Position numbers and translations under genes: made by a program. Positions 16,472 through 16,893 of a DNA stretch of 30,004 nucleotides are shown here, piece after piece. Positions within the stretch are counted from its first letter, which is position 1; the number at the start of each line of letters is the position of its first letter. The DNA comes from a virus (lineage: Duplodnaviria > Heunggongvirae > Uroviricota > Caudoviricetes). The notes beneath the pieces were generated by a model, which was not told the origin of the DNA, made no database searches, and saw only the letters and a list, made by a program, of their open reading frames with translations. The stretch lies in the IMG/VR virus record IMGVR_UViG_2872198387_000003, one strand, 5' to 3'.

Positions 16472-16546
16472 TGGAGCGGGCAGCGGGAATCGAACCCGCA
16501 TCATCAGCTTGGAAGGCTGAGGTAATAGCCATTATACGATGCCCGC
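16472..16546 (-). tRNA. tRNA-Gly (anticodon UCC)
   Basis: Hand-folded cloverleaf: GCGGGCA acceptor, anticodon loop CUUCCAA, T-loop GGTTCGATTCC, encoded CCA. Confidence 0.8.
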
Positions 16547-16549
16547 ATA

Positions 16550-16625
16550 TGGTGCCGACTACCGGAATCGAACTGGTGACCTACTGATTACAAGTCAGTT
16601 GCTCTGCCTGCTGAGCTAAGTCGGC
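16550..16625 (-). tRNA. tRNA-Thr (anticodon UGU)
   Basis: Hand-folded: GCCGACU acceptor, anticodon loop CUUGUAA, encoded CCA. Confidence 0.8.
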
Positions 16626-16627
16626 GC

Positions 16628-16704
16628 TGGCCCACCACCGAGGACTCGAACCTCGCACCGTCAACTTAGAAGGTTGATGCTCTATCCGGATGAGCTAGTG
16701 GTGG
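16628..16704 (-). tRNA. tRNA-Arg (anticodon UCU)
   Basis: Hand-folded: acceptor CCACCAC/GTGGTGG, anticodon loop CUUCUAA, T-loop GGTTCGAGTCC, encoded CCA. Confidence 0.75.
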
Positions 16705-16705
16705 T

Positions 16706-16782
16706 TGGTGGCCCTTGCTGGACTTGAACCAGCGACCTGGCGATTATGAGTCGCTCGCTCTGACCAACTGAGCTAAAGGGCC
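16706..16782 (-). tRNA. tRNA with anticodon CAU (ileX/ileZ-like tRNA-Ile2 or tRNA-Met)
   Basis: GGCCCUU acceptor, anticodon loop CUCAUAA; closely resembles my memory of E. coli ileX. Confidence 0.75.
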
Positions 16783-16791
16783 GGAGGCAGA

Positions 16792-16820
16792 ATAATAACC
16801 ATATGTCATCACATCTGCAA
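16792..16820 (-). promoter_or_regulatory. Predicted sigma70 promoter for the tRNA cluster (-35 TTGCAG, 17-bp spacer, -10 TATTAT)
   Basis: Hexamers read on the minus strand, ending 9 nt before the first tRNA. Confidence 0.4.
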
Positions 16821-16869
16821 ACTCATCTGACCACCAGCGCGTTTAACGCCCTGTGCCATTTTTCAGGCA

Positions 16870-16893
16870 CAAAAAAACCCGCATAAAGCGGGT
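16870..16893 (-). terminator. Intrinsic terminator (hairpin ACCCGC-ATAAA-GCGGGT followed by TTTTTTT on the minus strand) after the ORF6N gene
   Basis: 6-bp GC-rich stem and 7-nt U-tract. Confidence 0.55.

What the first reader, a model, noticed from the sequence alone, without database searches (positions are those of the whole stretch)
16472..16893. Four-tRNA cluster with its own promoter and upstream terminator inside the prophage late-control region
Four tightly packed tRNA genes (CAU, UCU, UGU, UCC anticodons; spacers of 1-3 nt) lie downstream of the Q-like gene, a tR'-like terminator and an antirepressor gene. This is the position where Stx-type lambdoid phages carry ileZ-argN-argO ahead of the toxin and lysis genes. 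The combination matches no native E. coli tRNA operon I know, so the cluster is probably phage-borne. Where lysis or cargo genes would follow, the sequence instead runs into IS911, so whatever lay downstream has been replaced.
Basis: partly seen in the sequence, partly recalled or inferred. Interest (0 to 1): 0.55.

Follow-up and report, generated by a model that had tools for sequence, protein, structure and literature searches.

The report
Prophage four-tRNA operon in Shigella
Four real, tightly packed tRNA genes with their own promoter sit in a decayed lambda-like prophage of a Shigella-type chromosome; this is a well-known kind of phage cargo, and the only unusual point is that another mobile island has inserted exactly at the end of the last tRNA.

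Summary
Four canonical tRNA genes lie on the minus strand, in transcription order Ile2(CAU) 16782-16706, Arg(UCU) 16704-16628, Thr(UGU) 16625-16550 and Gly(UCC) 16546-16472, with spacers of 1, 2 and 3 nt. They belong to a lambdoid prophage remnant riddled with insertion sequences in a Shigella-type ipaH island. The order is Q-like gene, isrK/C4 RNAs, ORF6N antirepressor-like gene (split by IS600), terminator, promoter, tRNAs. The identical cluster is annotated in intact E. coli prophages, where holin and lysis genes follow. tRNA 1 and tRNA 2 are relatives of Stx-phage ileZ and argN. tRNA 4 is 75/75 identical to chromosomal glyT, and tRNA 3 is 74/76 identical to thrU. The promoter (TTGCAG, 17 nt, TATTAT) is conserved across diverged phages, including upstream of Stx2 ileZ, where a start site driving the tRNAs has been mapped. 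The most likely role is supply of minor tRNAs for AUA, AGA/AGG, ACA and GGA codons. One correction: prophage homology ends at the last base of tRNA-Gly, not at IS911. The next 186 bp are the end of an integrase island that sits at chromosomal glyU in E. coli, and IS911 lies inside that integrase gene. This kind of cluster is already known, so interest is low.

The parts
16706..16782 (-). tRNA 1, anticodon CAU. It is the tRNA-Ile2 (lysidine) type, a relative of ileZ and ileX, and encodes CCA.
   Evidence: Found by ARAGORN and by Rfam at 70.5 bits. It is 74/77 identical to Stx2-phage ileZ, 69/77 to K-12 ileX and only 54/77 to elongator metT/metU. PGAP annotates the identical gene as tRNA-Ile in E. 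coli VL40. C4-G69, C5-G68, U12-A23, C29-G41, A37, A38 and A73 are read directly from the sequence.
16628..16704 (-). tRNA 2, tRNA-Arg(UCU), of a phage-specific scaffold (C1-G72, A20, G73). It decodes AGA and AGG.
   Evidence: Found by ARAGORN and by Rfam at 56.4 bits. It is 64/77 identical to Stx argN and 58/77 to K-12 argU. The identical allele occurs in 12 IMG/VR viral contigs.
16550..16625 (-). tRNA 3, tRNA-Thr(UGU), a near-copy of host thrU.
   Evidence: Found by ARAGORN and by Rfam at 69.8 bits. It is 74/76 identical to K-12 thrU, with two D-loop changes. The identical allele occurs in 22 of 120 IMG/VR contigs.
16472..16546 (-). tRNA 4, tRNA-Gly(UCC), identical to host glyT. Its 3' end is the junction with an integrated island.
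   Evidence: Found by ARAGORN and by Rfam at 64.9 bits. It is 75/75 identical to K-12 glyT. Homology to prophages ends at 16472, and the island sequence begins at 16471.
16792..16820 (-). Sigma-70-type promoter of the tRNA operon: -35 TTGCAG (16820-16815), a 17-nt spacer, -10 TATTAT (16797-16792), then a 9-nt G+C-rich discriminator before the tRNA 5' end at 16782.
   Evidence: Reported by the scan tool one base over, at 16821-16792. The hexamers and spacing are kept while the spacer varies, in a 5-phage alignment that includes Stx2 ileZ and in 23 of 24 distinct upstream sequences from 64 IMG/VR contigs. A primary transcription start between tR' and stx2AB that drives the tRNAs was mapped in EHEC Sakai (PMC7547250).
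16871..16899 (-). Intrinsic terminator upstream of the tRNA promoter (AACCCGC-UUUAU-GCGGGUU followed by U7). It ends transcription coming from the ORF6N side unless RNA polymerase has been modified by Q.
   Evidence: RNA fold. It is 100% identical in VL40 and conserved in CFSAN029787 and PhiR47_1.
16991..18815 (-). ORF6N-domain, antirepressor-like gene, split after codon 16 by IS600 (17501-18764, target duplication CTG).
   Evidence: Pfam ORF6N, E = 5.6e-18. IS600 copies were defined by self-BLAST and the target duplication was read. Removing IS600 restores a 185-aa ORF that is 161/187 identical to the VL40 protein.
18867..19091 (-). pR'-like promoter (TTGACT, 18 nt, TATATT, 19091-19062) overlapping the Q stop codon, followed by isrK (19055-18979) with its terminator (19000-18983) and the C4-type antisense RNA (18951-18867).
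   Evidence: Rfam isrK 75.6 bits, C4 77.6 bits and c4-a1b1 52.2 bits. Promoter and terminator come from the scan, and the sequence was read.
19088..19642 (-). Q-like late antiterminator gene (DUF1133 / Phage_antitermQ).
   Evidence: Pfam DUF1133, E = 5e-108, and Phage_antitermQ, E = 6e-6. It is 98.7% identical in DNA to the VL40 gene. The exact protein is found in many genomes of about 4.5 Mb.
12952..16471 (-). Remnant of a tyrosine-integrase island inserted at the 3' end of tRNA-Gly. The integrase start codon is at 16359. The remnant is broken by IS911 (15036-16284, with an adjacent deletion of about 1.1 kb) and by a 1207-bp IS3-family element (13587-14793), and is cut off by IS600 at 12951.
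   Evidence: BLAST to E. coli 21AR0133, where the island sits at glyU. An intact 534-aa integrase follows the same tRNA-Gly in sister genomes L010, L011 and L013. IS911 identity is 99.1% to annotated copies, and the IS3-family element was identified.

Best explanation
This is a phage-borne, self-promoted tRNA operon of the kind that lambdoid phages carry between the late antiterminator gene Q and the lysis or cargo genes. Here it survives in an IS-riddled prophage remnant of a Shigella-type chromosome.

Shown:
- There are four canonical tRNA genes: Ile2-type CAU, Arg UCU, Thr UGU and Gly UCC.
- A conserved sigma-70 promoter ends 9 nt before the first tRNA.
- An intrinsic terminator lies just upstream of that promoter.
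- In intact relatives, terminators and then the holin/lysis genes lie downstream.

Inferred:
- The promoter fires constitutively in the lysogen, as mapped for the homologous Stx2-phage promoter.
- During induction, Q-modified polymerase starting at the pR'-type promoter next to Q reads through the terminators and adds to tRNA output.
- One tetracistronic precursor is cut by RNase P at each 5' end, and the 1-3 nt trailers are trimmed by 3' exonucleases, since CCA is encoded.
- TilS converts C34 of tRNA 1 to lysidine, so that it reads AUA.
- The four products raise the supply of four of the scarcest host decoders (AUA, AGA/AGG, ACA, GGA), which phage and other horizontally acquired genes use more than core genes do.

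In this genome the lysis and structural genes are gone. A glyU-type integrase island recombined into the last 10 nt of tRNA-Gly, and IS-mediated deletions followed. The tRNA operon is therefore an orphan that is probably still expressed but is dispensable.
For: - tRNA calls and scores.
- Collinearity with the intact VL40 prophage, in the order Q, isrK/C4, ORF6N, four tRNAs, holin, lysozyme, Rz, terminase.
- The same layout in CFSAN029787 and in phage PhiR47_1, and the Q, ileZ, argN, argO, stx2AB layout in an Stx2 phage.
- tRNA identities: ileZ 74/77, ileX 69/77 against metT 54/77, argN 64/77, thrU 74/76 and glyT 75/75.
- A promoter footprint with conserved hexamers, fixed 17-nt spacing and a variable spacer across 24 distinct phage sequences and the Stx2 phage. 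A start site driving the Stx2 tRNAs was mapped experimentally (PMC7547250).
- The upstream terminator folds, and there are terminators between tRNA-Gly and holin in VL40 and CFSAN029787.
- Codon counts per 1000 codons: VL40 prophage genes have AUA 7-15, AGA about 10 and AGG 4-8, against 5.0, 1.8 and 0.6 in 5015 codons of flanking chromosomal genes. The window's ipaH has 10.5, 7.0 and 7.0.
- tRNA genes just downstream of Q, and the rare-codon rationale, are described for SfI, Sf6, ST64T and phage 21 (PMC3636060).
- The 429-nt terminator-to-tRNA-Gly block is 100% identical in six sister genomes.
Against: - ACA and GGA are only 1.1-1.4 times enriched in the prophage genes, so codon supply explains tRNA 3 and tRNA 4 weakly.
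- No expression data exist for this locus. The promoter is inferred from conservation and from a homologous mapped start site.
- Two of the eight sister genomes examined have lost the whole cluster by deletion (L009 and L012), so it is not essential.
- The near-identity of the cluster between the window and VL40 (2 differences in 519 nt) next to flanks that are 81-87% identical reflects mosaic exchange. It cannot be read as purifying selection.
Confidence: 0.75

Rival explanations
1. The cluster is an anti-defence cassette. The phage tRNAs would replace host tRNAs destroyed by tRNA-cleaving defence nucleases such as P2-OLD (which targets host tRNA-Thr UGU), PARIS AriB or PrrC (tRNA-Lys UUU), or colicin-D-like enzymes (tRNA-Arg), rather than compensating for codon bias.
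For: - P2-OLD, the effector that excludes lambda, kills by cutting host tRNA-ThrU(UGU) at paired CNG motifs in the anticodon stem, and phage tRNA-Thr(UGU) genes rescue the cell (PMC12445682).
- The cluster carries a Thr(UGU) gene.
- The only two differences between the window and VL40 in 429 nt are GT to TC at tRNA 3 positions 42-43. This destroys the 3'-strand CNG motif and shortens the stem. Similar variants occur in 3 of 120 viral contigs.
- The slot-2 tRNA has one scaffold but many anticodon arms, including Lys UUU and Arg UCU.
- tRNA 1 and tRNA 2 are well diverged from the host genes.
Against: - The window's tRNA 3 has an anticodon arm identical to host thrU, as do 117 of 120 phage copies. 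The paper reports that host tRNA-ThrU gave little or no protection.
- tRNA 4 is 100% identical to host glyT and carries the same paired CNG motif with A37, so it cannot be a resistant variant.
- No nuclease is known to target tRNA-Ile2.
- My search pattern fixed the 5' strand of the stem, so altered variants may be under-counted.
Confidence: 0.15
2. In this genome the cluster is an inert relic. It persists only because the prophage decayed recently, and it gives the Shigella host no benefit even if it is transcribed.
For: - All late genes are gone, ORF6N is split by IS600, and the island integrase is broken.
- Two of eight sister genomes have deleted the cluster.
- Sequence identity among sister genomes is about 99.9% across the whole region, so intactness of the tRNAs carries no signal of selection.
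Against: The promoter, the terminator and all four genes are unmutated and identical to those in intact, presumably active prophages. The host carries many AT-rich acquired genes that use AUA, AGA and AGG, for example ipaH in the window. This rival concerns present benefit and does not contradict the identity of the element.
Confidence: 0.3
3. It is an ordinary chromosomal tRNA operon (thrU/glyT region) misread as phage cargo.
For: tRNA 4 is 75/75 identical to glyT and tRNA 3 is 74/76 identical to thrU. Nearly every E. coli genome gives a BLAST match through these two genes.
Against: The chromosomal operon is thrU-tyrU-glyT-thrT-tufB, with spacers of 8 and 116 nt, and argU and ileX are solitary elsewhere. 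Here the flanks are Q, isrK/C4 and ORF6N, and the same block lies between Q and holin in intact prophages and isolated phages and in 120 or more IMG/VR viral contigs.
Confidence: 0.02

Closest known systems
ileZ-argN-argO tRNA cluster of Stx-converting lambdoid phages (933W / Sp5 type; here Stx2a_F349, AP012530)
   Same: Both lie just downstream of Q and the pR'/tR' unit and ahead of the cargo or lysis genes. The first tRNA is the same gene family (74/77) and the second is related (64/77). The same TTGCA(A/G), 17 nt, TATTAT promoter lies 9 nt before the first tRNA, and its activity in a lysogen has been mapped (PMC7547250). Both are explained by rare-codon supply.
   Different: There is no argO. 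Instead a Thr(UGU)-Gly(UCC) pair follows. The second tRNA reads UCU here, whereas the F349 argN has anticodon UCG. An isrK/C4/ORF6N module lies between Q and the tRNAs. No toxin genes are present.
The identical Ile2-Arg-Thr-Gly cluster annotated in E. coli prophages (VL40 NZ_CM177011, FDAARGOS_944) and its Ile2-Lys-Thr-Gly variant in isolated phages (PhiR47_1, vB_EcoS-689R5)
   Same: It is 99.5% identical over terminator, promoter and four tRNAs, with the same upstream genes. PGAP already labels the genes tRNA-Ile, Arg, Thr and Gly.
   Different: In those phages holin, lysozyme and Rz follow after 290-680 bp. In the window an integrase island follows instead. The VL40 tRNA-Thr has two changes in the anticodon stem. 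PhiR47_1 has Lys(UUU) in slot 2.
E. coli chromosomal thrU-tyrU-glyT-thrT-tufB operon
   Same: tRNA 3 and tRNA 4 are near-identical or identical to thrU and glyT, which suggests capture from an enterobacterial host.
   Different: There is no tyrU, thrT or tufB. The spacer is 3 nt instead of an intervening tyrU plus 116 nt, and the promoter and context are different.
Q-downstream tRNA genes of SfI, Sf6, ST64T and phage 21 (Asn GUU and/or Thr UGU)
   Same: They occupy the same genomic slot, and a Thr(UGU) gene is common. ACA bias has been offered as the reason (PMC3636060).
   Different: They differ in composition (Asn, no Ile2, Arg or Gly) and in number.
Nuclease-resistant phage tRNAs (phage tRNA-Thr against P2-OLD; T5 tRNA-Lys against PARIS)
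   Same: They share the UGU anticodon with the P2-OLD target, and some alleles of this cluster family alter the CNG motif.
   Different: The window's tRNA-Thr and tRNA-Gly have host-identical anticodon arms, so they lack the defining resistance changes.
Helper-embedded satellites (HE-PICIs) and tRNA-targeting genomic islands
   Same: An integrase-bearing element sits inside a prophage, between the late regulator and the late genes. It was inserted by a tyrosine integrase at a tRNA 3' end, and the tRNA is left intact (PMC10111431).
   Different: HE-PICIs target late protein-coding genes and belong to a specific integrase clade. This island normally uses chromosomal glyU. No primase or packaging genes were seen, and its far end is deleted here.

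Membership tests
Lambdoid-phage tRNA cluster downstream of Q (Stx-phage ileZ-argN type) | Located between the late antiterminator gene Q (with a pR'/tR'-type unit) and the lysis or cargo genes of a lambdoid prophage | tested here: met
   The Q-like gene is at 19088-19642 and the pR'-like promoter with isrK and its terminator is at 19091-18983. In collinear intact prophages, holin and lysis genes follow the same tRNAs. In the window itself the lysis genes are missing.
Lambdoid-phage tRNA cluster downstream of Q (Stx-phage ileZ-argN type) | Sequence homology of the tRNAs to ileZ and argN | tested here: met
   tRNA 1 is 74/77 identical to ileZ and tRNA 2 is 64/77 identical to argN. There is no argO homologue (46/77). 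Megablast gives 88.4% identity over the ileZ-argN segment in many Stx phages.
Lambdoid-phage tRNA cluster downstream of Q (Stx-phage ileZ-argN type) | A dedicated promoter between tR' and the first tRNA | tested here: met
   The hexamers and spacing are conserved with a variable spacer. Promoter activity has been mapped only in the Stx2 homologue (PMC7547250) and was not measured for this locus.
Lambdoid-phage tRNA cluster downstream of Q (Stx-phage ileZ-argN type) | The tRNAs are expressed and processed to mature, charged tRNAs | not testable with these tools
   This needs Northern blots or tRNA-seq. Only the canonical folds and the encoded CCA are shown.
tRNA-Ile2 (CAU converted to lysidine; ileX/ileY/ileZ) | CAU anticodon with a body closer to ileX than to tRNA-Met, and the TilS/IleRS determinants (C4-G69, C5-G68, U12-A23, C29-G41, A37, A38, A73; the determinants are recalled from the literature) | tested here: met
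   Identity is 69/77 to ileX and 74/77 to ileZ, against 54/77 to metT/metU. All listed positions are present in the sequence. PGAP calls the identical gene tRNA-Ile, while ARAGORN labels it Met from the anticodon alone. The lysidine modification itself was not tested.
Chromosomal thrU-tyrU-glyT-thrT-tufB operon | Gene order thrU, tyrU, glyT, thrT, followed by tufB, in a non-prophage context | tested here: not met
   K-12 has that order with spacers of 8 and 116 nt. The window has Thr and Gly 3 nt apart, preceded by Ile2 and Arg, in a prophage context.
Nuclease-resistant (anti-defence) phage tRNA-Thr(UGU) | Altered CNG motif and/or shortened anticodon stem relative to host tRNA-ThrU (PMC12445682) | tested here: not met
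   The anticodon arm of the window's tRNA 3 (ACTGA CTTGTAA TCAGT) is identical to K-12 thrU. The VL40 allele (TCATC) does meet this feature.
tRNA-gene-targeting integrative island (the element downstream of tRNA-Gly) | A tyrosine integrase gene next to the tRNA 3' end; the junction lies exactly within or at the end of the tRNA and the tRNA is left intact; the island is bounded by direct repeats of the tRNA 3' end | tested here: inconclusive
   The integrase (PF00589, 534 aa, intact in L010, L011 and L013) starts 113 nt after tRNA-Gly. The junction is at the last tRNA base. In E. coli the same island at glyU is bounded by 18-nt repeats, TTCCCTTCGCCCGCTCCA. In the window and its sister genomes the far end is deleted, so no second repeat can be shown.
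IS911 | About 1250 bp, IS3-family orfA/orfB, high identity to annotated IS911 | tested here: met
   Positions 15036-16284 are 99.1% identical over 100% of their length to PGAP 'IS3-like element IS911 family transposase'. The Pfam domains are HTH_Tnp_1 and rve. The flanks TAG and AGT are not a target duplication, which fits an adjacent deletion.

The most novel reading that the evidence does not exclude
The phage-carried tRNA genes may be more than codon helpers in two ways.

(1) The tRNA-Gly copy acted as a portable attachment site. An integrase island that uses chromosomal glyU in E. coli recombined into the last 10 nt of the prophage's glyT-like gene, where 15 of the 18 att positions match. 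This put its integrase gene in the same orientation as, and directly downstream of, the tRNA promoter and the Q-controlled late transcript. That is a helper-embedded arrangement, and it also cut Q off from the lysis genes.

(2) The cluster family may be in an arms race with tRNA-cleaving defences. Recurrent changes occur at the P2-OLD recognition motif of tRNA-Thr, and slot 2 has one scaffold with many anticodon arms.
Probability: 0.2. Interest if true: 0.5.

Novelty: already known. Interest (0 to 1): 0.2.

Why it matters
The finding mainly serves annotation. It shows that these are genuine, probably expressed, phage-derived tRNA genes in a Shigella ipaH-island prophage remnant, and it dates the loss of the late genes to an island insertion followed by IS-mediated deletions. 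If the cluster is still active, it adds decoders for AUA and AGA/AGG. These codons are enriched in horizontally acquired genes such as ipaH, so the cluster could modestly aid their translation. The side observation is the only part that goes beyond textbook knowledge: a phage-borne tRNA copy can act as a secondary attachment site for a chromosomal-tRNA-specific island, and alleles of this cluster vary at a known nuclease recognition motif. It would need experiments to matter.

Tried and rejected
- An exact 41-nt search for the tRNA-Gly/island junction in the species-representative genome collection found nothing. Shigella is probably not represented separately there.
- Exact-protein look-ups with the 95-aa integrase fragment and with the over-long 224-aa Q ORF found nothing. 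The 184-aa Q worked.
- Literature searches for ileZ/argN/argO by name returned nothing in the held library. Searches on glyU islands and on Shigella ipaH prophage remnants gave nothing specific to this locus.
- No supplementary sequences are held for the P2-OLD paper, so its rescue tRNAs could not be aligned to tRNA 3.
- The simple scan did not list the 16899-16871 terminator, which had to be shown by folding.
- I rejected the 10/12 promoter-like match at 16558-16531. It lies inside tRNA 3 and tRNA 4 (the glyT D-loop reads TATAAT) and is a chance match.
- I rejected homologous recombination between glyU and tRNA 4 as the origin of the junction. Only 10 nt of identity lie 3' of the tRNA 4-specific bases GCT.
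- I did not read the high identity of the cluster to VL40 as purifying selection, because the flanks show mosaic block boundaries.
- The organism name could not be confirmed with the tools. 'Shigella' is inferred from ipaH (NEL and LRR_TTSS domains), the CssrB and CssrC RNAs, the IS600/IS911/IS1/IS2 load and sister genomes of about 4.5 Mb.
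Full report
**Observation.** ARAGORN finds exactly four tRNA genes in the 30,004-bp window, all on the minus strand. They are CAU 16706-16782, Arg(UCU) 16628-16704, Thr(UGU) 16550-16625 and Gly(UCC) 16472-16546. The Rfam tRNA model scores them 56-70 bits against a gathering score of 29. The spacers are 1, 2 and 3 nt, and all four genes encode CCA. Transcription runs from 16782 down to 16472.

**Context.** The window is a mosaic of insertion sequences and phage remnants.
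- Self-BLAST shows four IS600 copies (490-1753, 11688-12951, 17501-18764, 28303-29568) and two IS2 copies (8021-9354, 26521-27854).
- There is an IS1 near 20608-21374.
- IS911 lies at 15036-16284 and is 99.1% identical to annotated copies.
- An IpaH-type effector gene (NEL and LRR_TTSS domains) lies at 2942-4657.
- Rfam finds the Shigella sRNAs CssrB and sok/CssrC.

I infer a Shigella-type chromosome but could not confirm the organism name.

**The prophage remnant and its relatives.** On the minus strand, 28304 down to 16472 is collinear with an intact lambdoid prophage of E. coli VL40. Both run from the replication genes through DUF1367, YbcO and a DUF1133/Q-like antiterminator (19088-19642) to an ORF6N gene and the same four tRNAs. 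In VL40, holin, lysozyme, Rz, terminase and portal genes follow. Two other relatives show the same slot between Q and holin: prophage CFSAN029787, which lacks the ORF6N module, and the isolated phage PhiR47_1. An Stx2 phage has Q, ileZ, argN, argO and stx2AB in that order.

**Upstream anatomy.**
- The stop codon of Q overlaps a strong promoter-like site (TTGACT, 18 nt, TATATT, 19091-19062).
- Next come Rfam isrK (19055-18979) with its own terminator (19000-18983), and then a C4-type antisense RNA (18951-18867).
- The ORF6N antirepressor-like gene follows, but it is split after codon 16 by IS600, with a 3-bp duplication (CTG). Removing the IS restores a 185-aa ORF that is 161/187 identical to the VL40 protein.
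- An intrinsic terminator lies at 16899-16871 (AACCCGC-UUUAU-GCGGGUU followed by U7). The region folds with z = -4.05.
- The tRNA promoter follows: TTGCAG (16820-16815), 17 nt, TATTAT (16797-16792), then a 9-nt G+C-rich stretch before the tRNA 5' end.

**Evidence for the promoter.**
- Taken alone, the promoter match is no better than chance.
- An alignment of five phages, including the region upstream of Stx2 ileZ, keeps both hexamers and the spacing while the spacer sequence changes.
- In 64 IMG/VR contigs whose cluster starts with the CAU tRNA, 23 of 24 distinct upstream sequences show the same pattern.
- Sy et al. [quoted passage not shown]

The 'own promoter and upstream terminator' claim is therefore well supported by homology, but it was not measured at this locus. 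In intact relatives, terminators lie between tRNA-Gly and holin. The tRNAs thus form a small independent unit nested in the leader of the late operon.

**Identity of the tRNAs.**

| tRNA | Closest phage gene | Closest host gene | Other comparison |
|---|---|---|---|
| 1 (CAU) | ileZ 74/77 | ileX 69/77 | metT/metU 54/77 |
| 2 (UCU) | argN 64/77 | argU 58/77 | argO 46/77 |
| 3 (UGU) | not compared | thrU 74/76 (two D-loop changes) | thrT 55/76 |
| 4 (UCC) | not compared | glyT 75/75 | glyU 56/75 |

- tRNA 1 keeps the acceptor-stem and anticodon-arm positions known to direct TilS and IleRS (read from the sequence; the determinants are from my own knowledge). PGAP labels the identical gene tRNA-Ile, whereas ARAGORN's 'Met' label rests on the anticodon alone.
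- tRNA 2 has a phage-specific scaffold with C1-G72, and it carries A20 and G73.
- K-12 has thrU-tyrU-glyT-thrT-tufB, and solitary argU and ileX. The arrangement is therefore not a chromosomal operon, but half of the cluster looks like a captured copy of host genes.
- In 120 IMG/VR contigs carrying this tRNA-Thr, the layouts are Thr-Gly alone (45), Ile2-Lys-Thr-Gly (37), Ile2-Arg-Thr-Gly (13) and rarer forms. The window's exact alleles recur 12-22 times.

**Likely function.** All four tRNAs match host decoders that are of low abundance and encoded by only one or two genes (my own knowledge). They read AUA, AGA/AGG, ACA and GGA.

| Gene set | AUA per 1000 | AGA per 1000 | AGG per 1000 |
|---|---|---|---|
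| VL40 prophage genes | 7-15 | about 10 | 4-8 |
| 5015 codons of neighbouring chromosomal genes | 5.0 | 1.8 | 0.6 |
| ipaH in the window | 10.5 | 7.0 | 7.0 |

ACA and GGA are only 1.1-1.4 times enriched in the prophage genes. The standard explanation, that phage tRNAs downstream of Q top up rare decoders (PMC3636060), fits tRNA 1 and tRNA 2 well and tRNA 3 and tRNA 4 weakly. Processing by RNase P and 3' exonucleases, and lysidine formation, are inferred from established E. coli tRNA biology.

**Rival: anti-defence.**
- P2-OLD, the effector of P2-lambda interference, cuts host tRNA-ThrU(UGU) at paired CNG motifs in the anticodon stem. Phage tRNA-Thr(UGU) genes with altered motifs rescue the cell, and host ThrU does not (PMC12445682).
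- The window's tRNA 3 has the host anticodon arm, as do 117 of 120 phage copies. tRNA 4 equals glyT. These alleles therefore lack the defining resistance changes.
- The only two differences between the window and VL40 across 429 nt are GT to TC at positions 42-43 of tRNA-Thr, which break that motif. Three of 120 contigs carry similar changes.
- Slot 2 shows one scaffold with many anticodon arms.

I rate this rival at 0.15 for the window's alleles, and it deserves a test.

- Homology to every prophage stops at 16472, the last base of tRNA-Gly.
- The next 186 bp match the integrase-proximal end of an island that sits at chromosomal glyU in E. coli 21AR0133 and LR-64-1. It lies next to actS and the xdh genes and is bounded by 18-nt direct repeats, TTCCCTTCGCCCGCTCCA. 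A related island occupies glyU in 383 further genomes.
- The integrase start codon is at 16359.
- The gene is then interrupted by IS911, which has no target duplication and lies next to a deletion of about 1.1 kb. Further on, a 1207-bp IS3-family element (13587-14793) interrupts it again.
- Sister genomes that carry the identical Q protein have an intact 534-aa tyrosine integrase right after the same tRNA-Gly (L010, L011, L013).
- tRNA 4 shares 15 of the 18 att positions with glyU. The junction keeps the tRNA 4-specific bases, so the crossover lay in the final 10 nt. That is too short for homologous recombination and is typical of an integrase.
- None of about 100 phage-borne copies of this tRNA-Gly in IMG/VR has this junction.
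- The far end of the island and all lysis and structural genes are absent from the window, so a second repeat cannot be shown.

**Conservation and dispensability.**
- The 429-nt terminator-to-tRNA-Gly block is 100% identical in six sister genomes. Two others have deleted it.
- Against VL40, the segment from the ORF6N stop codon to tRNA-Gly is 99.6% identical. ORF6N is 87% identical and isrK/C4 is 81% identical. This shows mosaic exchange of a tRNA module rather than measurable purifying selection.

**Verdict.** The feature is real and correctly interpreted in the main. It is a well-known kind of phage cargo, already annotated in public genomes. The new details are the exact promoter footprint, the host-copy nature of the Thr and Gly genes, and the island inserted at the tRNA-Gly 3' end. 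Interest is low, at 0.2. The most novel reading that the evidence does not exclude has a probability of about 0.2.

Noticed in passing
window 12952-16471 (minus strand); L002 20010-27351; L010 13172-15342: A tyrosine-integrase island that sits at chromosomal glyU in E. coli, bounded by 18-nt direct repeats, is joined here to the last base of the prophage-borne tRNA-Gly(UCC), where 15 of the 18 att positions match. The integrase is intact in sister genomes. In the window it is broken by IS911 with an adjacent deletion and by a second IS element. The integrase has the same orientation as the tRNA operon.
   Followed up: partly
L001 (E. coli VL40) 9376-9451 compared with window 16550-16625: The only two differences in 429 nt between the two clusters are GT to TC at tRNA-Thr positions 42-43. 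This removes the 3'-strand CNG motif and two base pairs of the anticodon stem, which is the feature reported to give resistance to P2-OLD. Three of 120 IMG/VR copies have TCATC or TCACC there. The tRNA-Gly (identical to glyT) also carries a paired CNG motif plus A37.
   Followed up: partly
IMG/VR loci L019-L138 (for example L019, L023, L025, L096): The second tRNA of this cluster family keeps one scaffold (CCGCCACTAGCTCATC...GGTGGCGG.CCA) but carries very different anticodon arms: Lys UUU (most common), Arg UCU (as in the window), Phe AAA, Leu UAA, and 73-74-nt forms with odd loops that ARAGORN cannot name.
   Followed up: partly
L007 (E. coli CFSAN029787) 3447-3522: In this prophage and at least six similar ones, the fourth tRNA has anticodon UAC on a glyT body, a 1-nt deletion in the 3' acceptor strand, and CAA in place of CCA. 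PGAP calls it tRNA-Val, but it may be a decaying gene.
   Followed up: no
window 13587-14793, with the Rfam isrN hit at 13931-14073 (-): The full-length, 156-bit Rfam 'isrN' match lies inside a 1207-bp IS3-family element, antisense to the orfA/orfB junction. Here the sRNA family hit marks an insertion sequence rather than a free-standing sRNA gene.
   Followed up: partly
window 7183-7815 and 7234-7422 (+): A second isrK and C4 RNA pair overlaps an Ash/Rha-domain ORF in the opposite orientation, next to IS2. This is a remnant of another lambdoid late-control region in the same window.
   Followed up: no
window 16860-16990 (-); L007 3022-3135: The 130 nt between the ORF6N stop codon and the tRNA promoter directly follow the Q gene in CFSAN029787. 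They contain a weak promoter-like pair (TTGCAT, 17 nt, TTCAAT, 16982-16954) and then the terminator. This could be a second pR'-short RNA-tR' unit, which would make isrK/C4/ORF6N an inserted module.
   Followed up: partly
window 2631-4657 and 21865-22189: An IpaH-type E3-ligase effector gene (571 aa) is preceded by the CssrB sRNA. A hok/sok (CssrC) module lies in the prophage early region. Both are typical content of a Shigella ipaH island.
   Followed up: no
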